DNA of 64,000 nucleotides from Lachnospiraceae bacterium (lineage in GTDB: Bacteria > Bacillota > Clostridia > Lachnospirales > Lachnospiraceae): contig JAFWIM010000012.1 in the NCBI GenBank assembly GCA_017514845.1, positions 1,777-65,776 of the forward strand, read 5' to 3'. Of this stretch, positions 23,434 through 56,256 are shown one piece after another; position 1 is the stretch's first letter; each line of letters opens with the position of its first letter. Both the position numbers and the translations under genes were made by a program. The notes beneath the pieces are model-generated. The model made no database searches, was not told where the DNA came from, and worked only from the letters and a program-made list of their open reading frames with translations.

Positions 23434-24588
23434 TTATCGCGTGATATCGGCCTCCCCGCCGTTATCCTTTACAGTTCCGTACTCGATGGCGGACTCCCTG
23501 TACTCCGCACCGAAGCCGGAGGTCTCCTCGATCTCCCTGCTGTAATTATCAACTTCGTAAGAAACTTCGTAGTTCTCCTCATCAAAAAGGTAGTAGTGAA
23601 GTTCCACAACGTTGTCCTTAAGCGTTACCGGAACGATTGCGTCCAGGGACCCGATCTGGCACGGAAGCGTCTCGAACGGGAAACCGCTCGTCTTCTCGAT
23701 ATTATAGTTGAACATCTGAGCCGCCATTTTTGTCAACTGAGCGCTTGAGAAGGACGTCTTAATGAGCGGGAACACGTCATTGATGATCTTAGTAATAGAC
23801 GTGATGCCCTTGACCTTGGCCTTGTCAACGATCTTCTCGATGACAAGTCTCTGGCGCTGTGTTCTCTTTAAATCATCACCGACCGTATAGCGGATACGGG
23901 CGTACGCAACCGCCTGAACTCCGTTCAGGTGATACTCTGTGACTTCCTGACCGCGCTCATACTGAAGCGGCTCATATTCCATGCCGGTGACCTCAGCCGT
24001 CTCGACGCAGTAATTATTCAGGTGGATAATTTCTTCCTCTGTCAGAAGGATGTCAATGCCGTCAAGGTCATCTACAAGAGTCGCGACCGCGCTGAAGTCG
24101 ACGATCACGTACTCGGTAATGTTGAGATCGAGATTTCCGTTCAGCATGGAGAGGAACTGCTCCACTCCGCCGTACGCGTATGCGGAATTGCACTTGTTGA
24201 ACTTCCATGTGTCGCTCTCCGGATCGATGTTGAGATACGTATCGCGATACAGAGAAATCATCCGCACAGCGCCGGTATCGTTATTGATACTGGCGACAAG
24301 CATTGTGTCACTGTTTCCCTCGTTGATATTGTTGTATCTCGTGTCAATACCGACAAGAGCAACATTCGTATAGCCCGACAGAGTCTCATTGGTAGCTACA
24401 TTCTCATTGATCAGAATGTTATCCAGATTGCCTGTCTCGCCGGCCATCGTGCGGAATCCGTTGTTGATCTGCGCATACACGTAGATAAGGCCAACAAGAA
24501 TGACCAGTATGAGGATTTCGACGATAAATAATATTATGTTGCCGCGCTTTTTCTTCTTTTTCCTGTTTTTACCGGTATTATCAGCCAT
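23434..24588 (-). CDS. LCP (LytR-CpsA-Psr) glycopolymer-peptidoglycan ligase
   Basis: Basic N-terminus plus TM, GIDTR, SDTML, SLYRD, LNG.QA..YARIR, DLKRTQRQR. Confidence 0.92.
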   Translation of the reverse strand: MADNTGKNRKKKKKRGNIILFIVEILILVILVGLIYVYAQINNGFRTMAGETGNLDNILINENVATNETLSGYTNVALVGIDTRYNNINEGNSDTMLVASINNDTGAVRMISLYRDTYLNIDPESDTWKFNKCNSAYAYGGVEQFLSMLNGNLDLNITEYVIVDFSAVATLVDDLDGIDILLTEEEIIHLNNYCVETAEVTGMEYEPLQYERGQEVTEYHLNGVQAVAYARIRYTVGDDLKRTQRQRLVIEKIVDKAKVKGITSITKIINDVFPLIKTSFSSAQLTKMAAQMFNYNIEKTSGFPFETLPCQIGSLDAIVPVTLKDNVVELHYYLFDEENYEVSYEVDNYSREIEETSGFGAEYRESAIEYGTVKDNGGEADITR

Positions 24589-24605: not shown

Positions 24606-26009
24606 TCAATACGCGTTATTATTTATAAATCCTTTAAAAACGGTCAGGAAGAGGATCTTAATATCCAGTCCGATCGACCAGTTTTCAATATAATACAGGT
24701 CGCAGTCAATGCGCCTGCGGATCGAAGTGTCGCCTCTGTAACCGTTCACCTGCGCCCATCCGGTCATTCCGGGTCTCACCTGGTGCTTGACCATATACCT
24801 GGGAATCTCTTCCTGGAATTTCTCCACGAAAAACGGGCGCTCCGGCCTCGGACCGACGAGGGACATCTCACCTTTCAGAACATTGAACAGCTGAGGCAGC
24901 TCATCAATGCTTGTCTTTCGCATAAATCTTCCGATCGGTGTGACTCTCGGATCATCCCTGACTGTCCACGCTTTCTTCTCCGTCTTTGCTTCCTGGACCA
25001 CCATGGAGCGGAATTTATACATCATGAACGGACGGTTGTGAAGGCCTACCCGCTCCTGACAGAATATGACGGGACCGGGTGAAGTGGTTTTTATGATCGC
25101 GCAGCAGACCAGCATGAGGGGCGCCGCAAGTATAATACAGATGATGCTTCCGACAATATCCATGAGGCGCTTGACCGCCGCCGGGAACGTGTTGGACAGC
25201 GGAACATACCTGATGTTGATGACCGGCATGCCCAGTATGTCCTCTGTATACGGTTTCGTCGGAATGATGTTGTTGTAGTCCGGAATGAACTTTGTATGTA
25301 CGCCGGATTTCTCACAGAGCGCTACGATTTCCTCCAGACGATAGTACTCGGAAAGACCGAGGGTAATCGCGATCTCATCCAAATGATTCTCCGGAAGGAT
25401 CACCATCAGGTTATCGATCCTGCCGATGACCTTGACACCCATATAAAGGGTACCCGATTCGACCTTGTCGTCTAAAATACCCCTGATATTATATCCCCAC
25501 TGCGGATTCTGCACTACCCTGTCGATATACTCCTCCGCTGCCCGGCTGTAGCCGACCAGGAGCACGTTCTTCAGGTTCCTGCCTCTCTTACGCATCCTGC
25601 ACACGCTTCCCCAGATGAAGAAACGGGCCCATACATCCAGCACGACATTGAACACAAAGAATATAAATATCATCGACCTGGACCAGTATTCCTGATGCAG
25701 GAGCTGCAGAGCAGTCATGAAAATAAGGCCGCCGGTGACATTTGCCTGAGTGATGGACGCGATTTCAACGCGCCGCCCCTTCAGACGATGTGTACTGTAC
25801 AGGTTGCATGCCGAGTACAGAATCAGCATCGCCGGTATCATGACGAACAGCGCGCGCATATAAACTGCATAAGGTACGGCTTCTACAGAGCTGGAAAAAA
25901 TCCCGCTCCGAAATCTCACATACCATGCAAGCCAGTAAGAAATTGTAAGAATGACAGCATCTACGACAGCAAGAAACCGATTATAGTATTTCTCATTTTC
26001 TTCTATCAA
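24606..26009 (-). CDS. undecaprenyl-phosphate hexose-1-phosphate transferase (WcaJ/CpsE family)
   Basis: Four N-terminal TMs, CoA-binding-like domain, KRLMDI, KFRSM, DELPQLFNVLKGEMSLVGPRP. Confidence 0.92.
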   Translation of the reverse strand: MIEENEKYYNRFLAVVDAVILTISYWLAWYVRFRSGIFSSSVEAVPYAVYMRALFVMIPAMLILYSACNLYSTHRLKGRRVEIASITQANVTGGLIFMTALQLLHQEYWSRSMIFIFFVFNVVLDVWARFFIWGSVCRMRKRGRNLKNVLLVGYSRAAEEYIDRVVQNPQWGYNIRGILDDKVESGTLYMGVKVIGRIDNLMVILPENHLDEIAITLGLSEYYRLEEIVALCEKSGVHTKFIPDYNNIIPTKPYTEDILGMPVINIRYVPLSNTFPAAVKRLMDIVGSIICIILAAPLMLVCCAIIKTTSPGPVIFCQERVGLHNRPFMMYKFRSMVVQEAKTEKKAWTVRDDPRVTPIGRFMRKTSIDELPQLFNVLKGEMSLVGPRPERPFFVEKFQEEIPRYMVKHQVRPGMTGWAQVNGYRGDTSIRRRIDCDLYYIENWSIGLDIKILFLTVFKGFINNNAY

Positions 26010-32648: not shown

Positions 32649-35075
32649 TCAGTTTCTCTTTAATGAAAAGTCCTGCGTGACCATCGACAGATTCGGGTTG
32701 TAGTAGGGATCGCCGTCCCGGAGGATCTCCGGCCATCTCTTCTGGAAAATCGCCATCTCGTTCTGGAACCTGGCGACCTTCTCGGGATTCCCCTGATCAA
32801 GGCCTCTCGACTTTGATTCATAGTGATAGAGCTCGGCGAACGGGTCGTACACGATGAGATAGCCCGCGCGCCTTATCTTCATGCAGAAGTCGATGTCGTT
32901 GAACGCGACCGCAAGCTCCTCAGTGAGCCCGCCGACCTCGTCGAAGACGCTCTTCTTCACCATAAGGCACGCGGCTGTGACCGCCGAGAGATCCTGCTGG
33001 CAGATGATCCTGTGCTGGTAGCCGGTCTCACCCCTGTTCTGGTTGACGAACGCGTGGCCGGCGATGCCGCCCCAGCCGACAATGACGCCGGCGTGCTGGA
33101 TCGTATTGTCCTCATAATAGAGTCTCGCGCCGACAGCACCCACATCATCTCTGCGGCAGAAGCTCAGCATCTCTCCGATGACATCGTCGCTGATGAACTC
33201 CGTGTCATTGTTGAGCAGGAAGAGGTACTCGCCTTTGGCCTCTTTCGCTCCGAAATTGTTGATGGCCGAGAAATTGAACCCGCCCTCATAGTAGACGACT
33301 TTCACGCGGTCATCCCTGGCGATGAGGTCCCTGTAATAGAGGAATGTCTCCTCCTCTGTCGAATTATTCTCAATGATGATGATTTCAAGGTTCGGATAGC
33401 GCACGCCGCGGTCGATACTCTTTAAGCACTTGTCAAGATCATCAATATGGTCCTTGTTCGGGATCAGAATCGAGACACAGGGCGTTCCCTCCCAGTGATA
33501 GACTGTCCTGTAAATGCCCGGATACTCTCCCATCTCCACTGTGGCCGGGAGTCCGAGCCGGCTGTAGTGGGCTTCGATCGCGCGCCTTCCTGCTTCAAAG
33601 GCATAGGTCTTGCTCTCCGGGTTGGCCGCCGTCGAGCCCTCGAAGAATCTCCAGTGGTAGAGGATCTTCGGAATGTGGACGATGTTCTCCGTAGCCTCTG
33701 TGCATCTCAGAACAAAATCATAATCCTGTGCTCCGTCATAGTCCGGATCCAGCATTCCCACCTTATCGATAAGGCTTTTCTTAACGACGAGCAGATGGCA
33801 GATATAGTTGACCGACCTCAGGAAATCCGGGTCAAAATCAGGCTTCATGTTCGGCTGCATATACTTCTCGCCGATGCCGATCTTATCCTCATCGCTGTAG
33901 AGGAGCTCTGCCGCCGGATTCTCGCGAATGGCTGCGGCATTCTCGTAGAGCGCATTGGGGGCAAGCAGATCATCGTGGTCTGCAAATGCAATATAATCGC
34001 CCTGCGCTGCCGCAATCGCCGCATTGGTATTCTCCGCGATCCGGAGCTGCCTGTTGTTCCGAACTACCCGTATCCTTGTATCGGAAGCTTCGAGTCTGTC
34101 CAGCACATCGTTAAGCGGTGTATCCTCACCGCTGCCGTCCGACAGGATGAGTTCCCAGTTCGCGTAGCTCTGCGCTTTCACCGAATCGACCAGCTGCACA
34201 AGGAAGTCTTCCGGCGTCTTATAGAGCGGTACGACGATCGAAATGAGCGGTGCCGGATCGAACACATCCTTCCTCTGCTTTGCGAGGACGCGCTCGCTGG
34301 GCAGATGCTTCTTTATCCAGTCCGCGTAGATCACCGGTTTCATTGCCGGGTTAAAGAGCTTGTCGTAGGTCTTCTCCGCAAGCGGACGAAGGCCGTGGTA
34401 CTTGAAGTACTCAATGCCCTTTCTGCCAAGCCGCATATATTTATCGGCTTTGGCGGAAACCGGGTCCGTGCGGTAGGAAAGCATGAGCTTCGCCTCCCCG
34501 GAGCGAAGGGCGACATAAATCTTCTTTTTCGGGATCGGCCGAAGTTCGATATGGAAGCCGCACTCGGGATCGATCTCGTACTCGTCGAAGAGGTCAGCAA
34601 CGTCGAGTCTCTTGTAGCGCTCGATATTGCACTTGATTTTCTTTTTCCGCGCGTCCAGGACGGCCATCTCGACAGGCTCCGTGGAAACTGCCCATCCCTG
34701 AAGGCGAAGGTATCCGTCCTTTGTATTGACCGTAAAGTCATCGACAAAGAGCTTGATGCCGTTCATCTTTACTGCAAGGTCCGCGGCGGAGATTTCAAAG
34801 CACAGTCTCCTGCCCTGATCCCGCACTGCGTAGACCTTCAGTTTTCTGTGAGTGTCTATGTCTTCCGGAATTCTGAAATTCACGACGCACTCGCTGCCGC
34901 CGTATCTCTCGTCCACATTCTGAGTGAGCTTTTTCACTTCGAGCGGGAACGGCTCACCGTCAAGAAAAGCCATGAGGTCTGTCCCCGGAGCCAGATGACC
35001 ACGCAGGACATAGAGGTCCTTTTCTGTGAGCGAAAATCTGTCGTTCTTTATTAAAAAACCGTCATTCCTTATCAT
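32649..35075 (-). CDS. bifunctional GT2-GT2 glycosyltransferase with N-terminal accessory domains
   Basis: Same two GT2 motif sets as 27392..29188, preceded by about 230 aa of beta-rich sequence. Confidence 0.88.
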   Translation of the reverse strand: MIRNDGFLIKNDRFSLTEKDLYVLRGHLAPGTDLMAFLDGEPFPLEVKKLTQNVDERYGGSECVVNFRIPEDIDTHRKLKVYAVRDQGRRLCFEISAADLAVKMNGIKLFVDDFTVNTKDGYLRLQGWAVSTEPVEMAVLDARKKKIKCNIERYKRLDVADLFDEYEIDPECGFHIELRPIPKKKIYVALRSGEAKLMLSYRTDPVSAKADKYMRLGRKGIEYFKYHGLRPLAEKTYDKLFNPAMKPVIYADWIKKHLPSERVLAKQRKDVFDPAPLISIVVPLYKTPEDFLVQLVDSVKAQSYANWELILSDGSGEDTPLNDVLDRLEASDTRIRVVRNNRQLRIAENTNAAIAAAQGDYIAFADHDDLLAPNALYENAAAIRENPAAELLYSDEDKIGIGEKYMQPNMKPDFDPDFLRSVNYICHLLVVKKSLIDKVGMLDPDYDGAQDYDFVLRCTEATENIVHIPKILYHWRFFEGSTAANPESKTYAFEAGRRAIEAHYSRLGLPATVEMGEYPGIYRTVYHWEGTPCVSILIPNKDHIDDLDKCLKSIDRGVRYPNLEIIIIENNSTEEETFLYYRDLIARDDRVKVVYYEGGFNFSAINNFGAKEAKGEYLFLLNNDTEFISDDVIGEMLSFCRRDDVGAVGARLYYEDNTIQHAGVIVGWGGIAGHAFVNQNRGETGYQHRIICQQDLSAVTAACLMVKKSVFDEVGGLTEELAVAFNDIDFCMKIRRAGYLIVYDPFAELYHYESKSRGLDQGNPEKVARFQNEMAIFQKRWPEILRDGDPYYNPNLSMVTQDFSLKRN

Positions 35076-37425
35076 CGCTTGTCACCTCGTTCCTCGCTTT
35101 CTGCAAGGCGGAATAGTTCGGAGGCATCGTTCCCCTCAGCACATAATCGGAAGTGTCATAGTCAAGATTCGGGTTGAAGTAAGGATCGCCGTTCTCAAAG
35201 ATATCCTTCCATCTTTCGCGAAGCTTTCTGGCCTCCCGCATCTGACGCTCGTGCTTCTCCGGGTTCTTCTTTATGTCATCGGAGCCGCGGGACAGCGATT
35301 CATGATGATAGAGCTCCGCCCAGGCGTCGTAGACGATCAGATATCCGGCAGCCCTCACCTTGAGGCAAAGATCGACGTCGTTGTAGGCTACAACGAAATC
35401 CTCGTCGAAACCGCCGACCTCCTCGAACACGTGCCTCGGCATCATCATGCAGGCCGCCGTGACGGCGCTGACATCCTGGCTCTTTACTATGCGGCCGAAA
35501 TATCCGCCGGAATCACGCTTTTCCATATGGCAGATGTGGCCGGCAATGCCGCCGATGCCGACGACGATGCCGCAGTGCTGCAGCTTGTCGTTCGGGTAGT
35601 AGAGTCTCGCTCCGACCGCGCCGACGTCGCCTCTCTGACAGTAACCGAGCATCTCCTCGATCCAGCGGTCGGTAATGACCTCGACGTCATTGTTCAGGAA
35701 GAGCAGGTACTCCCCGCGGGCTTGCTTCACCGCGAAATTATTGATCGCGGAGTAGTTGAAGATATCCTTCCAGTAGACGACCTTCACGTTGCCGTGCTCA
35801 GCCTGGATCTTCTCGTAGTAGGCAAATGTCTCCGGCTCCGTCGAATTATTCTCGGCGATGATTATTTCAAAATTCCTGTACGTTGATTTTTCAAATATTG
35901 ATACGAGCGCCCGATCCAGAACATCCCTGAAATCCTTGTTGGGAATGATGATCGAGACCAGCGGCTCTCCCTGTATCTCATACTTCGTCCGGTAGGACCC
36001 GATGTCCTCAGCCAGCTCGCACGTCGCATGGATGCCGCAGCGGTCGTAATGAGCCTGGATGGCTTTCCTGCCGTTGTCGTACGCGTACATCTTGCTCTCC
36101 GGATTTCCGGCGGTCGATGTCTGGTGCGCTCTCCAGTGATAGAGGAACTTCGGGATATGATGTACTTTTCTCGATTTCTCGACGCAGCGGAGAATAAAGT
36201 CGTAGTCCTGGGCTCCGTCGAATTCGCTCCTCTCGTATACCCGGTCCTCGCCTCCGATCTCATCGACGATAGACTTTCTCACGCAGAAAATGTGCGTAAT
36301 ATAGTTGTTCGAGCGAAGCAGATCCGGACTGAAATCCGGCTTGAAGTTCGGGCTGTAGTACACGCCCGACGTGTACATGATCTTATCCTCGTCGGTGTAG
36401 AGGGCGTCGATCTCCGGATCCTCATTAAGAGCCTTCACGATCTCGTAGCAGGCATTCTTCTCGACTGTGTCATCGTGGTCGCACAGCATGATGAAATCGC
36501 CGGTGGCCATCTTGATGGCCTCGTTGGTGTTGCCGGAAATGCCCGCATTCACCGCAAGTCTCTGGTAGACGACGCGGCTGTCGGACAGATACTGCTCCCT
36601 GACGTGCTCCTCGACCTCATCTTTGGTGCTGCCGTCAGCGAGACATACCTCGATGTTCCTGTATGACTGGCCGAGCAGGCCGTCCATGAGCTCATCGAGG
36701 AACTTCTCCGGCGTGTTGAAGAGAGGAATGACGATGGAGATCTTCGGCTCGTACGCAAACTTTACCTGCGCCTCGCGCGAAAGCTCCTCATCCGTCACCA
36801 TCTGATCGTGGATCCAGTCGTCGTAGCCCGCGCTGTCGATTGCGTAGGTCGGAATAGCGTGTCTCTTTATATAGGCAGCCCGCTTCTTATCGTCAAGTAT
36901 GATTTTGAGCTCCCTCGCAACATAGCCGAGCTCATTTTCAAGCTCGAACGTGATGATCGGATGCTTGATCTGGGCAAGCGGCAGTCTGACGGAGAAGCCT
37001 GTCAGGAATTCGCCGTCTATGCCGAGAAGATCATTTACGTCCGCTCTCGGATATCGCTGCACATCAAATGTGAGGATACGGCTCCTGTCGCGTATCACGA
37101 TCTCCGGAATGAGTCCGCCGTGCTCATAGCTCCAGCCGCGGATCACCAGATGGTCACCCTTGTAATATCTGTTGTCGATATTGTAGAGGATTCCGGCCTC
37201 AGCCTGGGAGAGCACCGGGCGGAGCTTACTGAACGGGTCCTCGCGTCCGGCTTTCACAGAGAGCTTCCGGTAGGCCATCATGGCTTTATTGCCGGACAGG
37301 AGGGCGGCGTAGCTGCCCCTCTTGATCCCCTCGTTTCTGGCCTTGTAATAGCGCTCCTTGAGAGTCTCCATCTCCTCTTTCAGCTTTTCATATTCCTCTT
37401 TATAATTGATCGTGTCCTGGCTCAT
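35062..37425 (-). CDS. bifunctional GT2-GT2 glycosyltransferase with N-terminal coiled coil and accessory domain
   Basis: YKEEYEKLKEEMETLKERY coiled coil, then CDHDD, YTDEDK, GAQDYD and LNND, AYNDVD. Confidence 0.88.
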   Translation of the reverse strand: MSQDTINYKEEYEKLKEEMETLKERYYKARNEGIKRGSYAALLSGNKAMMAYRKLSVKAGREDPFSKLRPVLSQAEAGILYNIDNRYYKGDHLVIRGWSYEHGGLIPEIVIRDRSRILTFDVQRYPRADVNDLLGIDGEFLTGFSVRLPLAQIKHPIITFELENELGYVARELKIILDDKKRAAYIKRHAIPTYAIDSAGYDDWIHDQMVTDEELSREAQVKFAYEPKISIVIPLFNTPEKFLDELMDGLLGQSYRNIEVCLADGSTKDEVEEHVREQYLSDSRVVYQRLAVNAGISGNTNEAIKMATGDFIMLCDHDDTVEKNACYEIVKALNEDPEIDALYTDEDKIMYTSGVYYSPNFKPDFSPDLLRSNNYITHIFCVRKSIVDEIGGEDRVYERSEFDGAQDYDFILRCVEKSRKVHHIPKFLYHWRAHQTSTAGNPESKMYAYDNGRKAIQAHYDRCGIHATCELAEDIGSYRTKYEIQGEPLVSIIIPNKDFRDVLDRALVSIFEKSTYRNFEIIIAENNSTEPETFAYYEKIQAEHGNVKVVYWKDIFNYSAINNFAVKQARGEYLLFLNNDVEVITDRWIEEMLGYCQRGDVGAVGARLYYPNDKLQHCGIVVGIGGIAGHICHMEKRDSGGYFGRIVKSQDVSAVTAACMMMPRHVFEEVGGFDEDFVVAYNDVDLCLKVRAAGYLIVYDAWAELYHHESLSRGSDDIKKNPEKHERQMREARKLRERWKDIFENGDPYFNPNLDYDTSDYVLRGTMPPNYSALQKARNEVTSDDKE

Positions 37426-37429
37426 CAGA

Positions 37430-38548
37430 TTACCCTTTCTTTCTGCCTATGCCCTTGACGGTCTGAAGTGCTTTGTATGATTTGGATCCGGTCACGTCCT
37501 CGAACATGTGCTTCCATGTATCCCGGTCTGTCTCCATCGCCTTGTAAGAGTATTCCATGTGGGCTTTCTCCGCGGCGTAAGCCTCCCTGTTCGTGACCAG
37601 CTCATTTCTCACTTCGTCATAACGGCGGAACCACTCGTCATCCAGATGCGCGTATCTGCTTCTCGCTTCGGCAAGCTCCGCCTCGAGCCTTCCGATCCTG
37701 CCCTGCAGGACCGCGACGGCCCTGTCGCACTCGCGCCACATGTCGTAGGCGGTACCGCCCGCATTTCCGGATGGCATCACAGGCTTTTTGAGGTCCCTGA
37801 GGTCTGTGTGCTCTTTGAGGGACGAGTGCTTGGCAACCGCGAAGCTCGTCCCGTCAGGCTCCGTGATCACGTACTCAAAGAAATGCTCGTAGCTCCGCTG
37901 CATCACATGCATGTCCGTCCTGATGCCCAGAAGCTTCAGAGCGCTCCTGAGGGGCAGGAGCTCCTCAAGGCCGGCTATATGATAGTACGCATCCCTTATG
38001 CAGTGATAGAGGACGAGATCCTTCGGCATGATAAAGGTCATCACCCACTCATAATCGATGAAATAGATGTCATCCCCCTCGAAGATGATGTTGCCCGCGA
38101 TGCCGTCGAAATTCGAGATCTTGAAGCCGGGAAGCCCGATGTAGGGTTCCGCGTCGCCGAAGACTCTGGTGAACTCATCGGACGGGACAAACTCCGTTTC
38201 GTTGTCGGGACTTACCGTGAGGATGGATTTCTGCCTGACAAAGAGGTCCTTCACAAGACCCTCGTCGCCGTCCTTCACCGCCTCCCTGAGCTTTTTCTCG
38301 AGAGAGTCGCCTGTGAGGTATGCAAATATCAGCTTCTCCCCGTCATATTCCACAGGGCAGGCCTTTGCCGGAGCGTAGACCTTCTCAAGGATGTCCGCGT
38401 AGGAAGCCACGCGGGAAAGATGCTCGCGGCCCTCCTCGTAGCAGGCCTCCTTGAAGACGCGCATTCCCTCATCCGTCCGGGCAATCGTTGTTATGATTGA
38501 AAATCTTCTGCTCCTCTCGTCGGAGCATTTTATGAACAGCTTTCTCAT
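37430..38548 (-). CDS. putative kinase-fold protein with C-terminal coiled coil
   Basis: VFK, DGIAGN (DxxxxN catalytic loop) and YFIDYEW (metal-binding motif of APH/choline-kinase-like folds); heptad-rich C-terminus; basic amphipathic tail. Confidence 0.6.
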   Translation of the reverse strand: MRKLFIKCSDERSRRFSIITTIARTDEGMRVFKEACYEEGREHLSRVASYADILEKVYAPAKACPVEYDGEKLIFAYLTGDSLEKKLREAVKDGDEGLVKDLFVRQKSILTVSPDNETEFVPSDEFTRVFGDAEPYIGLPGFKISNFDGIAGNIIFEGDDIYFIDYEWVMTFIMPKDLVLYHCIRDAYYHIAGLEELLPLRSALKLLGIRTDMHVMQRSYEHFFEYVITEPDGTSFAVAKHSSLKEHTDLRDLKKPVMPSGNAGGTAYDMWRECDRAVAVLQGRIGRLEAELAEARSRYAHLDDEWFRRYDEVRNELVTNREAYAAEKAHMEYSYKAMETDRDTWKHMFEDVTGSKSYKALQTVKGIGRKKG

Positions 38549-39475
38549 TCAGGCCTCCTCCCCGCACACAGCTTCGATGAGGAATGAGTTGGCAAACGCT
38601 GCTCTCTCCTCTGTGCCCTTAAGACCCGCAAATGCCCTATTCTGCGAGAACAATGTCATCACATCGAGATCGTAGTTGGCATTCTCCGGGAAATCTATGT
38701 CGGCATCCTTAATATTGTCGTCGCTGTAGATGACCGTCGGAAGCTTGTAATCCGGGAAGGGATAATAAAAATATATGTCCCTGAATCCCGCGGCGGACAG
38801 CATCTCCGTAAGCTCCGATCTCGTGAATGTCCTCACGTGATCCCCCTGCCTGTAGCCCTCGATACCGACGAACGGGACAGAGAGGTGGTCCTCGTGACTT
38901 CCGTTGAAATACTTCATGCCGAGCTTATTCTCGATCGCTATATAGAGACGGCCGCCATCTTTCATGACAGAGCGCACCTTCTCAAGGAAATCTTCGTAGG
39001 GTCTTTCGCTGTCGATATAGTAGCAGCCGTACTCCAGGACCCCGATCAGCGTGACGACATCGTACTTCTTTTCTATCTCAATGTCCTGAAAATTGCCGAC
39101 GATGATCTCGATATTATCCATATCTTTATGCCGGGTCGCGTTGATAAGGGACCTTCTGCGGGACAGTTCGATGCAGTCGACCTTCTTCACATAGGGGGCG
39201 ACACCTCCGGTGACCGCACCCATGCCGGCTCCGATCTCGAGGACCTCGTCATCTCTCCGAAGGTCCATTGGAAGGCAGATGTTCTCCCTCTGGCGGGTCA
39301 GGTGATAGAGCACCGGCCAGCTGTTCATATCCGGATGATAGTAGCCAAAGCCGGATTCACCGGAGACAATATCAAGGATATGGTTCTCGACCTCATCGCC
39401 GTCGCTGTAGAGGTCCGTCCCCTTATACCACTTGTAATTCAGTTTTACTTTGCCGATCAGTTCTTGAGATTCCAT
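38549..39475 (-). CDS. class I SAM-dependent methyltransferase
   Basis: VLEIGAGMG, CIELS, YDVVTLIGVLEY, GGRLYIAIEN. Confidence 0.9.
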   Translation of the reverse strand: MESQELIGKVKLNYKWYKGTDLYSDGDEVENHILDIVSGESGFGYYHPDMNSWPVLYHLTRQRENICLPMDLRRDDEVLEIGAGMGAVTGGVAPYVKKVDCIELSRRRSLINATRHKDMDNIEIIVGNFQDIEIEKKYDVVTLIGVLEYGCYYIDSERPYEDFLEKVRSVMKDGGRLYIAIENKLGMKYFNGSHEDHLSVPFVGIEGYRQGDHVRTFTRSELTEMLSAAGFRDIYFYYPFPDYKLPTVIYSDDNIKDADIDFPENANYDLDVMTLFSQNRAFAGLKGTEERAAFANSFLIEAVCGEEA

Positions 39476-41166
39476 CAGGGTGCCTTTCCTCGTATTTTAT
39501 CAAGTTCGGTCCAGTAGAAATCCGGTCCGAAGCGTTTAAAGACAACTTTATTATTCTCCCGCAGAGCAAGATCGAGATTTGTCGCGTGGGTAGACGCATA
39601 GCCGCTGCCGCAGGCGACACCTGTCATGAAAAGCTGTTTCTGCATAAGATACGGAAGAAGAAGCCTTGTCATGTCGCGGGATACACATTCTCCTTCGTCG
39701 GTTAAAGTGTTGATCTCGCTGACTGCATTTGCAAATGCATCGGCGCGCGCGACAAAACTTCCGCCGTACGGATAGACCGGCAGATCATCTCCCCTGATGA
39801 TCGGGAAGGTCATGCCCAGCCTTGCCGCAAATGCCTTGAGCTCATCGTAGTGTCCGGCATAGCCGTCCATGAGCGTCTCAAAATACGCCCCGTACATCGG
39901 AAGCGGCGGGATCAGAAGACCGATGTGGGCTTCCTCATCCAGCGTGTCCAGAATATTTCCGATGACTTCCCTGCTGCCGAAGAGGGCTTCCATATCCCCG
40001 TAAAGAAGGCTCGCCTCTCCGCTCTTCATCACGTCCCCTACCGGCTGCGGCAGATCGAACGGGTCAAGGACGAGCACGTACTTCGCGCCGATCGCCATCA
40101 TGGCGGCCTGTCTCAGCTTCTCCGAATAGGATTCATTCCCGTCGAGATAAATGATCTTGATCTCTTCCGGAATGCTGCGGAGATAGCGCCCGCAGACGGC
40201 TCTGAATCTCCCCTCGTCCCCCAGAATAAAGGCACAGGCCTCTCCGGGGACAAACGCGTGCTCACTGACCTCGCTGTCCGGGTAAAAATTCACATGCATG
40301 GTCTGGTGGATCTGGGCGAGATCCTGCAGACGAAGAATATTCTCCCACATGAGAGTGGGATCGTAGCCCGTGTGGGCAAGGACTGCCTCATAGGCGCGGA
40401 CCTGGCTCTCGCCCGCGTTATTCTGCAGATTGATCATGTAGTCGGAGAAGAAGTTCCTGCGCTTCAGGATCGGACACTTTTTGTCCCTTATGAGTTCGGC
40501 CGCGTGGTAGGCAAACGGCGCGGGCGAGTACTCTTCATACTCGTCCGAGTCCACATAGGCCTCCCACTTGTAGCCGAGATCCGCAAAGTATTTTGTGAAA
40601 ACAGCCTCGTAGCCCGCAATAGAGTCCACATAGGAGTCAGGGTTCTTCATGTTCATGATGAAATCCCGGTAGGAAAAACTCATGAAGAAATCCCTGCGCA
40701 TCGCTATGAAATGCGAATTCAGATGCTCCGGCATGTAGCCGTAGGGAATGGCACCGTAGGGATCGACCGTCAGGCGGTAATGCTCCGTGATCCCCCAGAA
40801 ATCAAGATCCCGGACGTTCATCTCCCGGAACATGTCCGAAAATGAATCCAGCGGTCCGAAGAACGTATAATTCATGAGAACAAGCTCGTCGTACTTTGAC
40901 AGTTCGTGAAAGCCCAGATCAAATATGCCTTCCCTGTATCCAGCCACGTCGAACCCCGTGTTCGGGCGGTAGAGCACCCGGTCGCAGCAGGCGGAAAGCT
41001 CCGTGCCCGCCTCCTCGGTGAGAAAGCCGTTGACCACCGTAAGGACATAGGCGGCATCCTCGCGGATCGACCGCAGCATATTTTTCATATAACGGTCGAC
41101 AAGCCCGTCTTTGTCGAAATACAGGACGATGAAGCACCGGTTCCTGTTATTCTTTTCCAATTTCAT
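39475..41166 (-). CDS. rgpF: RgpF-family rhamnan synthesis protein (degenerate C-terminal domain)
   Basis: N-terminal NTGFDVAGY, FFGP, DFWGIT, HLNSHF, YE..FT, CPILKRR; clear paralogue of the neighbouring gene. Confidence 0.78.
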   Translation of the reverse strand: MKLEKNNRNRCFIVLYFDKDGLVDRYMKNMLRSIREDAAYVLTVVNGFLTEEAGTELSACCDRVLYRPNTGFDVAGYREGIFDLGFHELSKYDELVLMNYTFFGPLDSFSDMFREMNVRDLDFWGITEHYRLTVDPYGAIPYGYMPEHLNSHFIAMRRDFFMSFSYRDFIMNMKNPDSYVDSIAGYEAVFTKYFADLGYKWEAYVDSDEYEEYSPAPFAYHAAELIRDKKCPILKRRNFFSDYMINLQNNAGESQVRAYEAVLAHTGYDPTLMWENILRLQDLAQIHQTMHVNFYPDSEVSEHAFVPGEACAFILGDEGRFRAVCGRYLRSIPEEIKIIYLDGNESYSEKLRQAAMMAIGAKYVLVLDPFDLPQPVGDVMKSGEASLLYGDMEALFGSREVIGNILDTLDEEAHIGLLIPPLPMYGAYFETLMDGYAGHYDELKAFAARLGMTFPIIRGDDLPVYPYGGSFVARADAFANAVSEINTLTDEGECVSRDMTRLLLPYLMQKQLFMTGVACGSGYASTHATNLDLALRENNKVVFKRFGPDFYWTELDKIRGKAP

Positions 41167-41254: not shown

Positions 41255-43129
41255 TCAGCTGTTTTCAATGCGGGACAGGAATTCCCTGAACGGTTTCCAG
41301 CCCCCGGTGCGCTCCGCCTCCGCCTTGACAAGTCCGTTATTCATATATGCCCAGTTGTCCATATGAATGCGGGCGTAGGAATCGGACATGATCCATGCTG
41401 AATAGAACCCTTCGCTCTGGGCAGCGAACGGATACAGCCTCTCAATCGCGTGCAGCACCGTTCCGTCGATATCCACAGGCTCCGCCGGGAATTCCTCATA
41501 CTGCCAGTCGTGGTCAAAAAGGCTCTTCAGTGCTTTTGTCCTGACCCAGAATTCAGAGCCGAGCGGGGCCACCGGCTCGCGTTTATCATCCATCGGCGCG
41601 CGGATTCCAAGCTTCTCCGCGGTCTCTTTGGTGACCGCAAAGTTCTCTCCCCACTCTCCGAGGCCAGTGGTCGGAAAATACGGACCGTGGACGGGGACCG
41701 GCGGACTGAGCAGTCCGAGATCCGGGTGATCCTCAAATAATTTTATTATATTCTTTACGTACGTCTCCGTCGGGAGAAGACATTCAAAGCAAAGAATCTC
41801 CCATGCCCTGCCGATCGACCGGAGCGGGATCTGCTTTACCTTCTTGTCATGGATCTTGAGGACGAGATCATACTTCATGAAAATGTCCTTGCAGGTCACG
41901 AGGAAGGGAGCTACGTCCCTGCCCCTGTTGCCGGATACGCGGAATTCGACCCTGTGGCTCTTTTTGATCTCATCAAAATACGGCTCTACGATTACACGCT
42001 TTCTCTCATCCGGGACCGTGACATACATGTCGATGCCCTCCGGCATGTTGGAGGCGTAGGCAGCGCACTCCTCCGCGAGATCATCGTAGTAGATGTGGAG
42101 GATCAGGGCTGTCCTCAGGGAACCCGCAAAGCTTCCGACATGCGTCAGATCTTCTGTCGATTCTCCTCTCCTGCCGTCTGCCGGACCCTGGCTCGCATGG
42201 GGCATGCCTTTCTTCCCCGCTGTCCGATCGAGCTTTGTCGGGACAACGTAGGTGAGGCCGAGACGCTTTCTGAGATCCGCCATGTTGCAGGTGCGGATCA
42301 GGTTCTTTGTGATAAGCCTCTCGTCGTAGTCCGTCTCATCCTTTATATAGGCAAAGGCTTCCTTCGCGGCCTCGCCGCCGCTTCGCTCAAAGGCCTCCAC
42401 ATAGTCATGATAAAAAGTCCGCTTCTTCATGACCGGACATCTGAGAGTCTCCATGCAGTATCTCGGGAAGTCCCTCAGCGGATCCCATGTGTACTCGGAT
42501 ATGGCGTCTCCGTCGCAGTAGACGTCCCATGTGTAGCCCAGGTCCTCCATGGCCTTTGTGAAGACGGCTTCGTGGGTGCCGATCGCGTCCTCGTACTTCG
42601 TGATGGCGGGCATCTCCTCCCACCATTTTCTGAAATCCTCTGTCCTCATAAAGTCTTTTCTGAAGACCTGGAAAAAGCTCTGGATATGTTTCGGCAGGTA
42701 CCCGTAAGAGATGGTGCCGAAGGGATCGAAGGGCGCGCCGAAAAAGGCGGTGATCCCCCAGAAATCGAGGTCCCTGCCCGCCATCGCTCCGAACATTTCG
42801 GAGAACGGGTGGATGGGACCGTAAAGTGTGTCGTTGCAGATCACGGCCTCGTCATACGAGCAGAGATCATCATAGCCGTGCGCAAGAAGCCCTTCTTTAT
42901 ACGCTGTGATGTCATAGCCCACATTCGGCCTTACGATCACCTCGTCGGCGATCTCCCTGATCCGGGCTTCTCCCTCCGCCTCCACGTTCCCGTTTATGAC
43001 AACGCGAAGGCATGCGGTCTCACTTCGAAGGCCCGCAAGGAACACGTCAATATATTTATCCACAATGCCGTCATCGTCATGCATGACATAGACGGCAAGT
43101 CTTTTTACGCCGCTGTCTTTAAGGATCAA
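41255..43129 (-). CDS. rgpF: RgpF-family rhamnan synthesis protein
   Basis: NVGYDI.AY, DFWGIT, HIQSFF, LHIYYDD, NRGRDVAPF, KIHDKK, FWVR, LHAIERL. Confidence 0.87.
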   Translation of the reverse strand: MILKDSGVKRLAVYVMHDDDGIVDKYIDVFLAGLRSETACLRVVINGNVEAEGEARIREIADEVIVRPNVGYDITAYKEGLLAHGYDDLCSYDEAVICNDTLYGPIHPFSEMFGAMAGRDLDFWGITAFFGAPFDPFGTISYGYLPKHIQSFFQVFRKDFMRTEDFRKWWEEMPAITKYEDAIGTHEAVFTKAMEDLGYTWDVYCDGDAISEYTWDPLRDFPRYCMETLRCPVMKKRTFYHDYVEAFERSGGEAAKEAFAYIKDETDYDERLITKNLIRTCNMADLRKRLGLTYVVPTKLDRTAGKKGMPHASQGPADGRRGESTEDLTHVGSFAGSLRTALILHIYYDDLAEECAAYASNMPEGIDMYVTVPDERKRVIVEPYFDEIKKSHRVEFRVSGNRGRDVAPFLVTCKDIFMKYDLVLKIHDKKVKQIPLRSIGRAWEILCFECLLPTETYVKNIIKLFEDHPDLGLLSPPVPVHGPYFPTTGLGEWGENFAVTKETAEKLGIRAPMDDKREPVAPLGSEFWVRTKALKSLFDHDWQYEEFPAEPVDIDGTVLHAIERLYPFAAQSEGFYSAWIMSDSYARIHMDNWAYMNNGLVKAEAERTGGWKPFREFLSRIENS

Positions 43130-43141
43130 AGCTCCACCCTC

Positions 43142-44431
43142 TCAGTATGTATGTCCGTCGATCGTCGTCACGGACTCCATGTCATAAAATCCGACAGTGT
43201 TCTTGTCTGAGATCACATTGATATCACAGACATCATACAGTCTGTTATATACAGTGAATCTGTTGTTCGCGAATCCGACCACGCCCAGAGAGAGCAGATA
43301 ACTCCTGCCCTGAAGCGTCATGCGCTGTCTGAAATCGACCACGTGCTCGGTCCCTGCCTTGTAGACGCCGGTATCGATCCGCTCAAGCATAGTGTTGGTC
43401 CCTGTCACCTCGGTCCCCTGCGGATCCTTGATCGTGAAGCAGAAGAGCGGATCCTGTATGTCCTCATTGAAATGAACTTTCATGCGGATTATAAATTCCG
43501 AGCCCTTCACGATACCCGAGTTGATTTTTCCGTCCTCATCGATCAGGGCGAAATCTACGATCTCCGCCTGCTTCTCACCGTAGTCCAGCAGCTGCGGATT
43601 TACCTCCAGCTTGCCGTACCATCTGCCCTCGGCGTTCTCCGGTTTCAGATAGCGGGATATCTCCTCCTCGAGGTTCTTCCTCTGCTCAGCTGCCGGGACC
43701 GTGACAAGGATCTGCTTGTAGATATCGATGACTTCCTTGGGCTCACCCTCGCAGTTCTTGACGCCCTTATTGAGAAGTACGACTCTGTCACAGTACTTAG
43801 CCACCGATCCCAGATCGTGGCTGACGAAAAGTATCGTCTTGCCCTGCTTCTTGAACTCCTCGAACTTGTGATAGCACTTTGCCTGGAAGAACACGTCGCC
43901 GACACTGAGAGCCTCATCGACGATCAGAATCTCAGGGTCGATGTTGATGGCCACCGCGAACGCGAGTCTTACGAACATTCCGCTCGAGTAGGTCTTGACC
44001 GGCTGGTTGATAAAGTCGCCGATGTCAGCGAAGGAAATGATTTCCTCCAGCCTGGCATCGATCTCCTCGCGGGAGAAGCCCATGACCGTACCATTGACAT
44101 AAATATTCTCCAAACCGGTGTATTCCGGGTTGAAGCCCGCGCCGAGCTCTAAAAGAGCTGAGATCCTGCCATATACCTGAATACTGCCCATCGTCGGCGA
44201 CAGCACGCCTGTGATGATCTTCAGGATCGTGGACTTGCCGGATCCGTTGGTGCCGATAATTCCCACGCACTCGCCCTTCTTGACATCAAAGCTGACGTCA
44301 TTCAGCGCGAGGATCTCTTTATATCTTTTCTGCTTTGACAGGCCGAGGGACTCGCGAAGGCGGTCCGTCGGCTTATCATATAGCTTATATGCTTTTGTAA
44401 TATTGTTGACAGCGATTGCTATTTCCTGCAT
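43142..44431 (-). CDS. wzt: polysaccharide ABC exporter ATPase with C-terminal Wzt_C-like domain
   Basis: GTNGSGKS, YSSGM.VRLAF, VDEALSVGD, VSH; about 170-aa beta-rich C-terminal extension. Confidence 0.92.
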   Translation of the reverse strand: MQEIAIAVNNITKAYKLYDKPTDRLRESLGLSKQKRYKEILALNDVSFDVKKGECVGIIGTNGSGKSTILKIITGVLSPTMGSIQVYGRISALLELGAGFNPEYTGLENIYVNGTVMGFSREEIDARLEEIISFADIGDFINQPVKTYSSGMFVRLAFAVAINIDPEILIVDEALSVGDVFFQAKCYHKFEEFKKQGKTILFVSHDLGSVAKYCDRVVLLNKGVKNCEGEPKEVIDIYKQILVTVPAAEQRKNLEEEISRYLKPENAEGRWYGKLEVNPQLLDYGEKQAEIVDFALIDEDGKINSGIVKGSEFIIRMKVHFNEDIQDPLFCFTIKDPQGTEVTGTNTMLERIDTGVYKAGTEHVVDFRQRMTLQGRSYLLSLGVVGFANNRFTVYNRLYDVCDINVISDKNTVGFYDMESVTTIDGHTY

Positions 44432-44568: not shown

Positions 44569-45969
44569 TCAAAGCGTGTCCGCGAAGTGTATCTTGAGAC
44601 GTTTGAAGATGAACGCTCCGACCACGAAGAAGACCGCCGTCACCGCCCAGAAATAGAAGGTGAGGTCGAATCTCTCCCAGAACCAGACCTTGTTCATCAT
44701 GGAGTCACGGTAGCCGTTCACGATATAGAAAATCGGATTCAGCTTGAATACCGTGATCAGCCAGCCCGGCATTCTCGCGCTCATATTGTCGATATTCCAC
44801 ATGATCGGCGTCATCCACACCTGGATCTGGATAATGATCGAAATGATCTGCGAGAGGTCGCGGAAAAAGACGACGATCGAGCAGGTCGCGTAGCACACAC
44901 CCAGACTGTACATGAACAGGCAGAACGAATAATAGAACACCTGCAGCGCATAGAGGTCCGGGAAGTGACCGCTCAGGGTAAAGAGCGCGAGCATCAGGAA
45001 AATGAAGAAAAGATGCACGAACAGCGCGGAGATCTCCTTTACGATCGGCAGGATGGAAATCTTGAAAACGACCTTTTTTACCAGATACGTGTACTCCAGA
45101 AGAGCGTTCGTTCCGCCCACGAGAGTATCCTGGAAGAAGAACCAGGGGACAAGACCGCATATGAGCCAGAGCACGAACGGGTAAGTGATCCCCGTCGGGG
45201 CTGTGACGTCAGCCGCGCCGAGTCCTACCTGAAATACGAACCAATAGACGACGATCGTGATTGCCGGCTGAATAAAAGCCCATACGATGCCGAACACGGA
45301 TCCTGCGTATTTTGTCTTAAAATCATTGCGCGCGAGCTGCATGATGAGCACGCGGTTCTGAATGAGCTCCATAGGAAGCGTAGAAAACTTCTTTCTAAAG
45401 ACAAAAGCTGCCGCGCACATAAGGTCGAGAAGCACCGCGATGATGACGTTCTTTACGGTATTTTTCGTGCGAAGTCCCGGCAGCACCTGAGCGTAGATTT
45501 GATCCGGTCCCTGCTCGAAGACGACAAACGGATCACCGCTTTTCGTCGTCACAGTGAAGCTTCCCCCGGCGCTCTCGAACGAATCGATGTCGTTGTCACG
45601 AAGGACCGCCGACGCGTCAAAAGACTGTTCCTTATCTCCGAGGACGAACCTGGCATCGGAGACGCTGTACTTCGCCTCCGCGGCGCCGAAGTCGATCCTC
45701 ACATACCTTGTCGTGAGCGGAAGGGCAAATTCCATTGTGACGTCCTTCCCGATGTCCCCGCTCTCGTACCCGACAGTTTTCTGGGCAGACGGGGCAAAAT
45801 CCGTCGTGTCACTGTAATATACCTGAATATTGTCCGAGACAGTGCCGTTCAGGGAGAAAATGAGATTTGCCGTCCCGTTCGCTCCCCCGTCATGTGTCAG
45901 AATAAAATAGTTCAGCAAAAGCACCAGCACGGCGAGGCATGCCAGCACGATCTTCTTTTTCAAAGACAT
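44569..45969 (-). CDS. wzm: polysaccharide ABC exporter permease with extra N-terminal TM, soluble domain and TM
   Basis: The canonical ABC-2 part (LARNDFKTKYAGS.FG..W..IQP, W.TPI.W, LNP, FADTL) begins only at about aa 205. Confidence 0.88.
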   Translation of the reverse strand: MSLKKKIVLACLAVLVLLLNYFILTHDGGANGTANLIFSLNGTVSDNIQVYYSDTTDFAPSAQKTVGYESGDIGKDVTMEFALPLTTRYVRIDFGAAEAKYSVSDARFVLGDKEQSFDASAVLRDNDIDSFESAGGSFTVTTKSGDPFVVFEQGPDQIYAQVLPGLRTKNTVKNVIIAVLLDLMCAAAFVFRKKFSTLPMELIQNRVLIMQLARNDFKTKYAGSVFGIVWAFIQPAITIVVYWFVFQVGLGAADVTAPTGITYPFVLWLICGLVPWFFFQDTLVGGTNALLEYTYLVKKVVFKISILPIVKEISALFVHLFFIFLMLALFTLSGHFPDLYALQVFYYSFCLFMYSLGVCYATCSIVVFFRDLSQIISIIIQIQVWMTPIMWNIDNMSARMPGWLITVFKLNPIFYIVNGYRDSMMNKVWFWERFDLTFYFWAVTAVFFVVGAFIFKRLKIHFADTL

Positions 45970-48717: not shown

Positions 48718-48746
48718 TTGCCACGTCCGAATGTTGATAGTATACT
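48718..48746 (+). promoter_or_regulatory. sigma-A promoter of the plus-strand decoration operon
   Basis: TTGCCA-17bp-TATACT. Confidence 0.65.
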
Positions 48747-48783
48747 ATTAAAAGTTGCTTTTCAAGACAAAAGGTGCAAATTT

Positions 48784-49734: not shown

Positions 49735-49819
49735 GCGGGGGCTCTCGCCCTGCGGTTGCTTCGGCTGTCTTTATAAAGAGCAGACATTCTTCCACATAGA
49801 TATGACAGGAGAGGAACAA

Positions 49820-50842: not shown

Positions 50843-50868
50843 TTTGCAAAAGCTGTCTGTATATTTAT

Positions 50869-50890
50869 GAATCCGGCTTCGGCCGGATTC
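50869..50890 (+). other. stable hairpin with cUUCGg tetraloop
   Basis: GAATCCGGC-TTCG-GCCGGATTC between the GT2 and ATP-grasp genes, with no strong U tract. Confidence 0.6.
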
Positions 50891-50910
50891 CTTGCTGAAA
50901 GGAAATAATT

Positions 50911-52092: not shown

Positions 52093-52177
52093 ATCTTACC
52101 CGCCTTGCTTCATGACTTGCGCTATGCCTATAATTAGTAGTAGAATATTACTACTTATGACTATAAGGAGCATTACT

Positions 52178-53308: not shown

Positions 53309-53438
53309 AACGCTCCCAAGCCTTCCCCTCTGATATGAGAATGATATCCCCCCGCCGCCAGAAAGCGGGGGGCTTCCACTAATAAGATAAAGAAACGGAT
53401 CCCCAAGCCTTCATTCCGCAGGATCCAAAGGAAAGAGG

Positions 53439-56210: not shown

Positions 56211-56256
56211 TTTACGCATCAAGACCATTTGACAATTAATAGTCAGGGGGGAGAAA

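What the first reader, a model, noticed from the sequence alone, without database searches (positions are those of the whole stretch)
37430..39475. Split WbdD-like chain terminator and ruler (methyltransferase + kinase + coiled coil) in a Gram-positive wall-polysaccharide locus
Seen: a SAM methyltransferase is followed immediately by an unannotated ORF with kinase-fold motifs (DGIAGN, IDYEW), a ~90-aa heptad region and a basic amphipathic tail (SKSYKALQTVKGIGRKKG). The pair sits among RgpF and GT2 polymerases, and Wzt has a C-terminal extra domain. Established: E. coli O9a WbdD has the order MTase-kinase-coiled coil-amphipathic anchor, caps the glycan with methyl-phosphate, measures length with the coiled coil, and the cap is read by the Wzt C-terminal domain. 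Inference: a methyl-phosphate capping and length-control system on an RgpF-type, LCP-anchored rhamnan, which I do not know to be described.
Basis: partly seen in the sequence, partly recalled or inferred. Interest (0 to 1): 0.82.

Follow-up and report, generated by a model that had tools for sequence, protein, structure and literature searches.

The report
Two-gene glycan capping enzyme, Lachnospiraceae
Two adjacent genes in a gut Gram-positive bacterium encode a methyltransferase and a kinase-fold protein on a helical stalk that likely cap finished surface sugar chains with methyl-phosphate for export, as a Klebsiella O7 enzyme is known to do.

Summary
In detail: a SAM methyltransferase is followed by a kinase-fold protein with a ~89-residue heptad helix and a basic tail, in a wzm/wzt(Wzt_C)-RgpF-GT2-LCP locus.

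The closest prototype is Klebsiella pneumoniae O7 ORF6, not E. coli WbdD. ORF6 is shown to put methyl-phosphate on a terminal rhamnose and to gate export. All six of its published methyltransferase residues have equivalents here; ORF6 itself was not retrieved.

The split is real and common: 55 of 80 GTDB loci are split and 22 fused. The kinase occurs in 35 of 50 family genomes. This copy belongs to a subclade tied to an RgpF gene pair that lacks ORF6's carbohydrate-binding domain.

Cap chemistry, ruler function, polymer identity and LCP anchoring are inferred. I found no paper describing this family in Firmicutes, but a key 2019 survey was unreadable. Gram-positive caps are known (WsaE methyl; C. 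difficile cyclophosphate). The scan found similar modules before on other DNA.

Verdict: new variant of a known mechanism.

The parts
38549..39475 (-). SAM methyltransferase subunit, 308 aa (P0002), ORF6(O7)-type; SAM loop LEIGAGMG at residues 79-86 (about 39218-39241); Y23, Y57, G82, G84, E103, Y149 correspond to ORF6 Y28, Y66, G91, G93, E112, Y158
   Evidence: ORF6 residues from PMC11231755 section 11
38554..38561 (-). Shine-Dalgarno-like GGAGGAGG inside the end of the methyltransferase gene, 5 nt before the kinase ATG (in-frame TGA-ATG junction)
   Evidence: sequence directly
37820..38548 (-). Kinase domain of P0001 (residues 1-243), APH/AmiN-like fold; K33, D148-x4-N153 (38090-38107), D165-Y-E-W (38045-38059); residues 2-8 predicted to pair with methyltransferase residues 246-251
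37754..37819 (-). Pro/Gly-rich linker (residues 244-265), low model confidence
37487..37753 (-). Heptad helix, residues 266-354, about 89 aa (about 13 nm if one continuous helix); putative coiled-coil stalk
37430..37486 (-). Basic C-terminal helix (residues 355-372, net +6), putative membrane anchor; similar S-K/R-x-W/Y-K/R tails in many relatives
43142..44431 (-). Wzt ATPase with Wzt_C domain (about 43178-43585), putative cap reader
   Evidence: PF14524 E 1.5e-38; weak hits to solved Wzt C-terminal domains, 8dku E 5e-4 and 2r5o E 4e-3
44569..45969 (-). Wzm permease, 466 aa, with an extra N-terminal beta-sandwich domain between two hydrophobic segments
41255..43129 (-). RgpF-family glycosyltransferase 1
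   Evidence: PF05045 E 1.5e-177
39475..41166 (-). RgpF-family glycosyltransferase 2; its stop overlaps the methyltransferase start by 1 nt
35062..37425 (-). Double-GT2 protein whose first ~60 residues look like a short coiled coil plus a basic helix resembling the terminator tail
   Evidence: resemblance judged by eye
32649..35075 (-). Second double-GT2 protein (45% identical to the first)
23434..24588 (-). LCP family protein, candidate ligase to peptidoglycan
24606..26009 (-). WcaJ/WbaP-type initiating phosphoglycosyl transferase

Best explanation
The two genes encode a methyltransferase and an aminoglycoside-kinase-fold protein that are predicted to dock into one two-subunit enzyme, which likely caps the non-reducing end of a lipid-linked, probably rhamnose-rich wall glycan with methyl-phosphate so that the neighbouring Wzm/Wzt exporter likely accepts it. 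Shown here: the domains, fold, intact catalytic residues, conserved gene context, and homology to the ORF6(O7) family. Inferred steps: (1) the basic tail holds the kinase protein at the inner membrane face, and the ~89-aa helix oligomerises into a stalk that lifts the kinase away from the polymerases; (2) once a chain reaches it, D148/N153/D165 with Mg-ATP phosphorylate the terminal sugar at the hydroxyl needed for elongation (O3 of rhamnose in O7); (3) the docked methyltransferase methylates the phosphate; (4) Wzt_C binds the cap and licenses export; (5) the YfhO GT-C decorates the chain outside and LCP links it to peptidoglycan. My odds by step: capping kinase plus methyltransferase ~0.8, export gating ~0.75, stalk sets length ~0.6, capped block built by the RgpF pair ~0.55, LCP anchoring ~0.6.

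For: Residues: K33, D148, N153, D165, E167 and W168 are present in 150 of 150 best representatives and as a full set in 76 of 80 GTDB loci.

ORF6 link: ORF6's six named methyltransferase residues match number for number in 68 of 238 long proteins fetched, with the catalytic Asp at 445-450 versus ORF6 D441. The natural fusion P0020 aligns to one of these proteins at E 3e-54. The kinase profiles match by HHalign at probability 96.6-98.7. In O7 the product was 3-O-methylphospho-rhamnose, and D441A blocked export.

Context: the methyltransferase is adjacent or fused in 77 of 80 loci, and Wzt_C lies within 8 kb in 66 of 80.

Complex: score 0.91 against best control 0.00; runs agree in at least 94% of contacts; partner pLDDT 93. 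That mark was reached by 116 of 157 solved complexes and 2 of 215 mismatched pairs; the counts hold only roughly with my own alignments.
Against: No glycan structure or assay exists for this organism. ORF6 itself was not retrieved, so the link runs through Pseudomonas homologues and published residue numbers. The kinase halves are far apart: BLAST did not align their catalytic part, and the HHalign segments were cut around the shared motif. Residue conservation is partly circular, because hits were chosen with a profile that contains those residues. A ~20-residue low-confidence linker lies between kinase and helix, which weakens a rigid ruler. The tail's amphipathicity is borderline. Four relatives (L057, L058, L062, L068) show no wzm/wzt in the DNA held, three of them with about 8 kb on each side, and 12 of 77 methyltransferases have a degenerate SAM site, so the family is not uniform. 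Split halves tend to pass the complex test easily.
Confidence: 0.72

Rival explanations
1. The pair caps and gates export, but the helix is only a membrane anchor and oligomerisation or recruitment rod; chain length is set by enzyme ratios, not by helix length.
For: A flexible linker precedes the helix. The distance between two conserved anchors in the helix varies from 35 to 71 residues among close homologues with the same gene set. Many relatives have a CBM-like domain and only a short helix. The downstream GT2 carries a similar short helix plus basic tail.
Against: Coiled-coil rulers are established for WbdD and WbbB (PMC11231755 discussion). Some of the length differences are whole heptads (71, 64, 50).
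Confidence: 0.12
2. The mature cap is plain phosphate or a 2,3-cyclic phosphate rather than methyl-phosphate; methylation is partial or only activates the phosphate for ring closure.
For: The C. difficile SLCT-11 S-layer glycan ends in 2,3-cyclophospho-rhamnose, and its cluster has a stand-alone SAM methyltransferase (orf10) next to a Wzt_C-bearing exporter (PMC6254364). Methylation by ORF6 was incomplete in vitro. Twelve of 77 relatives have lost the SAM site.
Against: This copy keeps all seven methyltransferase positions checked. Whether C. difficile orf9/orf10 belong to this family was not tested by sequence.
Confidence: 0.09
3. The pair adds a phosphate or methyl-phosphate decoration at a non-terminal position, or on another glycoconjugate, and has no role in termination.
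For: A sister clade (L057, L058, L062, L068) lacks a nearby wzm/wzt; in the two members scanned with Pfam the next gene is a GT-D.
Against: In this subclade the pair sits two genes from Wzt_C and carries the helix-plus-basic-tail architecture of known terminators; the sister clade's C-termini look different.
Confidence: 0.05
4. The methyltransferase O-methylates the terminal sugar directly (WsaE or E. coli O8 style), and the kinase-fold domain is a non-catalytic scaffold.
For: This is the characterised Gram-positive precedent: WsaE makes a 2-O-methyl-rhamnose cap (PMC2943079). The kinase lacks a classical Gly-rich loop, and neither candidate helix-C glutamate (E39, E42) is invariant.
Against: Catalytic Lys/Asp/Asn/Asp are invariant. 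In some relatives it is the methyltransferase that decays, not the kinase. The ORF6 homologue needs its kinase Asp.
Confidence: 0.02

Closest known systems
Klebsiella pneumoniae O7 ORF6 N-terminal methyltransferase-kinase terminator (Kelly et al. 2024, PMC11231755)
   Same: Homologous methyltransferase (six of six named residues have equivalents), an unannotated kinase domain whose fold matches AmiN/APH, the order methyltransferase-kinase-coiled coil, double-GT2 partners, and a rhamnose pathway with an ABC exporter.
   Different: Here there are two genes instead of one polypeptide, no CBM-like domain between kinase and helix, GT2 modules on separate proteins, an RgpF pair upstream, and a Gram-positive host with LCP instead of LPS ligation. 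The paper's text lists orthologues only in alpha- and gammaproteobacteria, cyanobacteria and Methanoculleus.
E. coli O9a / K. pneumoniae O3 WbdD (PMC3482155)
   Same: Same proposed chemistry (phosphorylate, then methylate) and the same layout of kinase, coiled coil and C-terminal membrane region without polymerase domains; a Wzt C-terminal reader.
   Different: WbdD is one 708-aa protein with a ~210-aa methyltransferase and a eukaryote-like kinase acting on mannose. Here the methyltransferase is ~300 aa and the kinase best matches APH-type enzymes; WbdD was not among the PDB sequence hits.
Geobacillus stearothermophilus WsaE S-layer rhamnan system (PMC2943079)
   Same: Gram-positive, rhamnan, Wzm/Wzt export, a capping methyltransferase with two rhamnosyltransferase domains.
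   Different: The cap is 2-O-methyl with no phosphate, the enzyme is fused, and the glycan goes onto protein via WsaB. The sequence was not compared here.
Clostridioides difficile SLCT-11 S-layer glycan cluster (PMC6254364)
   Same: Gram-positive phospho-capped rhamnose end; gene order wzm, wzt (Wzt_C-like), stand-alone SAM methyltransferase (orf10), then a weakly annotated glycosyltransferase (orf9).
   Different: The cap was solved as 2,3-cyclophosphate, no kinase was identified by the authors, and the glycan is protein-linked. Homology to this pair was not tested.
Streptococcal/lactococcal Rgp rhamnan pathway (PMC9574508, PMC5596347)
   Same: RgpF-family transferases, rml genes, ABC export, GT-C side chains and LCP.
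   Different: There the proposed terminator is a sugar cap by RgpE, without experimental evidence, and initiation uses TagO/RgpA. This locus has a WcaJ-type initiator, two RgpFs, double-GT2s and Wzt_C.

Membership tests
K. pneumoniae O7 ORF6-type terminator | Methyltransferase with SAM-site residues Y28, Y66, G91, G93, E112, Y158 | tested here: met
   P0002 has Y23, Y57, G82, G84, E103, Y149; four of five spacings are identical and Y23-Y57 is 4 shorter. Homologues match ORF6 number for number. ORF6 itself was not retrieved.
K. pneumoniae O7 ORF6-type terminator | Unannotated APH/AmiN-like kinase domain after the methyltransferase, with a catalytic Asp (D441) | tested here: met
   [not shown]
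K. pneumoniae O7 ORF6-type terminator | Coiled coil after the catalytic domains | tested here: met
   Helix 266-354 with heptad periodicity, p=0.016; oligomerisation not tested.
K. pneumoniae O7 ORF6-type terminator | Methyltransferase and kinase in one polypeptide | tested here: not met
   Two genes; predicted to dock; 22 of 80 relatives are fused. Hence a split variant, not a strict member.
K. pneumoniae O7 ORF6-type terminator | Ig-like CBM between kinase and coiled coil (in ORF6 itself; not stated for all orthologues) | tested here: not met
   No such domain in the model and no profile hit in P0001; present in 34 of 80 relatives.
K. pneumoniae O7 ORF6-type terminator | Makes methyl-phosphate on terminal rhamnose and is required for export | not testable with these tools
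   Needs assay, NMR and mutants.
E. coli O9a WbdD | Sequence homology to WbdD | tested here: not met
   WbdD is not named among the PDB sequence hits with P0001 (9 hits, E<=10), the kinase profile (10 hits, E<=10) or P0002 (13 hits). For the methyltransferase profile only 60 of 71 hits were shown.
E. coli O9a WbdD | Eukaryote-like (Src-type) kinase fold | tested here: inconclusive
   Best matches are APH-type; no direct superposition with WbdD was made.
Cap-gated ABC transporter-dependent glycan assembly | Wzt with a C-terminal carbohydrate-binding domain in the same cluster as the terminator | tested here: met
   PF14524 E 1.5e-38; 66 of 80 related loci.
Cap-gated ABC transporter-dependent glycan assembly | Wzt_C binds capped but not uncapped glycan | not testable with these tools
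   Needs a binding assay.
Rgp-type rhamnan wall polysaccharide | RgpF-family transferase, rml genes, ABC exporter, LCP | tested here: met
   RgpF x2, rmlB/C/D, wzm/wzt, LCP; no rmlA hit among the 46 proteins scanned.
Rgp-type rhamnan wall polysaccharide | RgpA/TagO-type initiation | tested here: inconclusive
   No GT4 hit among the 46 window proteins scanned and a WcaJ-type transferase instead; the rest of the 83%-complete genome was not searched for RgpA or TagO.
WsaE-type O-methyl terminator | Homology to WsaE and absence of an active kinase | not tested
   The WsaE sequence was not obtained; the kinase here looks intact.

The most novel reading that the evidence does not exclude
This two-subunit kinase/methyltransferase is the general chain terminator of Lachnospiraceae wall glycans. 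In this subclade it is the missing stop signal for RgpF-built rhamnan, with its helix pairing with the similar N-terminal helix of the GT2 polymerase to form a two-protein ruler. The same enzyme family would explain the orphan cyclophosphate cap of the C. difficile SLCT-11 glycan.
Probability: 0.3. Interest if true: 0.65.

Novelty: new variant of a known kind. Interest (0 to 1): 0.42.

Why it matters
How Gram-positive rhamnan-type wall polymers stop growing is open: a 2022 review says the proposed RgpE cap has no experimental evidence (PMC9574508). This module names a concrete kinase, a catalytic residue (D148), a partner and a predicted cap. It occurs in 35 of 50 sampled genomes of this family and in cultured Blautia isolates, so the question becomes directly testable. 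A terminal methyl-phosphate would be a widespread, so far unlooked-for surface epitope on dominant gut commensals (relevance to phage or immune recognition is inference). A specialist would not be very surprised, because the chemistry and logic are established in Klebsiella and capped ABC-exported glycans are known in Gram-positives.

Tried and rejected
Assembly error or readthrough as the cause of the split: rejected.

WbdD orthology: no sequence support. WbdD was not listed in the 50 rows of the wide fold search or the Foldseek rows shown, which does not exclude a shared fold.

Library scans: Pfam and NCBIfam gave nothing for P0001, and only 1 of 20 kinase domains hit APH, weakly. The ESM Atlas gave unnamed clusters, with APH/RIO1 only below 0.9.

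Retrieving K. pneumoniae ORF6 itself failed: the search returned Pseudomonas proteins, the plasmid search gave two partial hits, and the paper's supplement with Fig. S9 was too large to read.

Retrieving the C. difficile SLCT-11 cluster failed: 5 of 112 genomes of the Tepidibacter family had the methyltransferase; I fetched two of them, and neither reproduced that cluster's full gene list.

The promoter scan was at chance level (13 found against 13.1 expected). Metatranscriptome contigs cover parts of both genes but do not show transcription. The careful tree did not finish, so only the quick tree was used.

Papers not held: Mann, Kimber and Whitfield 2019 Glycobiology, the survey most likely to mention Firmicute terminators; PMC7397119; PMC6791312.

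Full report
What is there. The finding covers two minus-strand genes: a 308-aa class I SAM methyltransferase (38549-39475, P0002) and a 372-aa protein with no Pfam or NCBIfam hit (37430-38548, P0001). Read in their direction, the cluster runs rmlB, an NAD-dependent epimerase, rmlC, wzm, wzt with Wzt_C, RgpF, RgpF, the pair, two double-GT2 proteins, rmlD, a YfhO GT-C, two more GT2s, a WcaJ-type initiating transferase, LCP and a GT2. No O-antigen-ligase-type (Wzy_C) hit was found among the 46 window proteins scanned. Each of the methyltransferase, kinase and Wzt_C has one copy in the 83%-complete genome. The closest homologues are labelled Lachnospiraceae, several from ruminant gut assemblies.

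The split is real. The genes are in frame and separated by one TGA, with GGAGGAGG five bases before the second ATG. A contig from an independent study spans the junction with one difference, elsewhere. Among the best 80 of 549 GTDB matches, 55 are split and adjacent, 22 fused, 2 have no detectable methyltransferase and 1 is cut off. In 38 of the 55 split loci the genes are in different frames. In 20 loci fetched from the 28 matches among relatives, 15 are split and 5 fused; these overlap the 80 and are not independent. Of the best 150 representatives among 3102 clusters at 50% identity, 137 begin with the kinase. The kinase was found in 23 of 24 genomes of the genus, and in 35 of 50 of the family and 60 of 301 of the order sample. 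The split form is thus ordinary in this lineage.

Which family. Kelly et al. 2024 (PMC11231755; I read section 11 whole, part 1 of 2 of the Discussion and passages; the supplement was unreadable) characterised K. pneumoniae O7 ORF6. It is a methyltransferase, an unannotated AmiN-like kinase, a CBM-like domain, a coiled coil and two GT2s. It puts methyl-phosphate on O3 of the terminal rhamnose, and D441A blocks export. The paper names Y28, Y66, G91, G93, E112 and Y158. A search with a natural fusion from a relative (P0020) found 348 long homologues, and a second search centred on a Pseudomonas hit found 1272. Of 238 long proteins fetched, 68 carry those six residues at exactly those numbers, with the kinase Asp at 445-450; that set is enriched by the second search. 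P0002 has the equivalents Y23, Y57, G82, G84, E103 and Y149. The methyltransferases align at E 3e-54, but BLAST does not align the catalytic part of the kinases. Profile comparison does, at probability 96.6-98.7, on segments cut around the motif. ORF6 itself was not retrieved. E. coli O9a WbdD, with its eukaryote-like kinase (PMC3482155, passages), was not named among the PDB sequence hits. So the pair works like WbdD but belongs with the O7 type, as a split variant lacking the CBM.

The subclade and RgpF. A quick methyltransferase tree was built from 75 of the 80 loci (five left out for a missing or short match), plus the window and five outgroups. It places the window in a 25-row clade (support 99) with 22 split rows and 3 fused rows nested inside, which suggests re-fusion. 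Of loci L031-L055, 24 of 25 have RgpF directly upstream (the other is cut off) and none has the CBM-like domain. Of the other 55, 34 have that domain and none has an upstream RgpF gene. Three of the RgpF loci (L050, L051, L053) show no double-GT2 homologue in the DNA held. This favours, but does not prove, that the cap goes on an RgpF-built block; these are kin and count as roughly one event. The distance between two conserved anchors in the helix varies from 35 to 71 residues in close homologues, which fits a tunable ruler but also a tolerant tether.

Against the reading. There is no glycan structure. The linker before the helix is flexible. Twelve of 77 methyltransferases, nine of them Roseburia-labelled, have lost the SAM site; the window copy has not. 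Four loci of a sister clade show no exporter in the DNA held. The locus is not a canonical rgp cluster, and RgpF members need not transfer rhamnose (PMC9574508, passages), so 'rhamnan' and 'LCP-anchored' are inferences from gene content.

Prior knowledge. Capped, ABC-exported glycans are known in Gram-positives. WsaE adds a 2-O-methyl cap (PMC2943079, passages). The C. difficile SLCT-11 glycan ends in 2,3-cyclophospho-rhamnose; its cluster reads wzm, wzt with Wzt_C, stand-alone SAM methyltransferase, glycosyltransferase (PMC6254364: passages, Discussion and Table S1). That is the gene order seen in many of my loci, but I could not test homology. Ten full-text searches (listings only, apart from the papers named) turned up no description of an O7-type or split methyltransferase-kinase terminator in Firmicutes or beside RgpF. 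PMC7188991, PMC11127046 and PMC5596347 were read as passages and did not describe it. The 2019 Glycobiology survey of terminators was not held and may cover such loci. Earlier notes of this scan reached similar readings on other genomes; my O7 reading was recorded before I saw them.

Verdict. Best explanation: a two-subunit O7-type methyl-phosphate terminator gating Wzm/Wzt export of a Lachnospiraceae wall glycan (0.72). Novelty: new variant of a known kind. Interest 0.42.

Noticed in passing
[not shown]
   Followed up: partly
window 37246-37425 (-), start of the double-GT2 gene: The N-terminal ~60 residues look like a short coiled coil followed by a basic helix resembling the terminator's tail, conserved in the 17 loci printed; possible docking partner or second membrane anchor.
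   Followed up: no
L057, L058, L062, L068 (match near 8001 in L057/L062/L068): Methyltransferase-kinase pair followed by a ~415-435-aa gene (GT-D fold in the two scanned) with no wzm/wzt in the DNA held and a different C-terminus; may modify another glycoconjugate.
   Followed up: partly
L072, L077, L081, L085, L087, L089, L091, L098, L108, L109, L056, L067: Degenerate SAM motif in the methyltransferase while the kinase set is largely intact, mostly Roseburia-labelled; suggests phosphate-only caps.
   Followed up: partly
L063 (Schinkia azotoformans) and L095 (Tepidibacter thalassicus): The same split pair sits in clusters with a Wzy_C ligase-type gene upstream, resembling S-layer protein glycosylation loci.
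   Followed up: no
L092, L097; proteins P0053, P0091-P0093: The kinase, or methyltransferase-kinase, is fused to RgpF-family domains in one polypeptide, a further link between this terminator and RgpF.
   Followed up: no
window 48718-58194 (+): A divergently oriented block: PLP enzyme, GT2, ATP-grasp, DegT aminotransferase, a second YfhO GT-C and an unannotated 645-aa ORF (56257-58194); could supply an amino-sugar or acylated side chain.
   Followed up: no
L059 and L104: Loci labelled Holdemanella and Tidjanibacter are nearly identical in the tree to Blautia and Fusicatenibacter loci; binning contamination or transfer.
   Followed up: no
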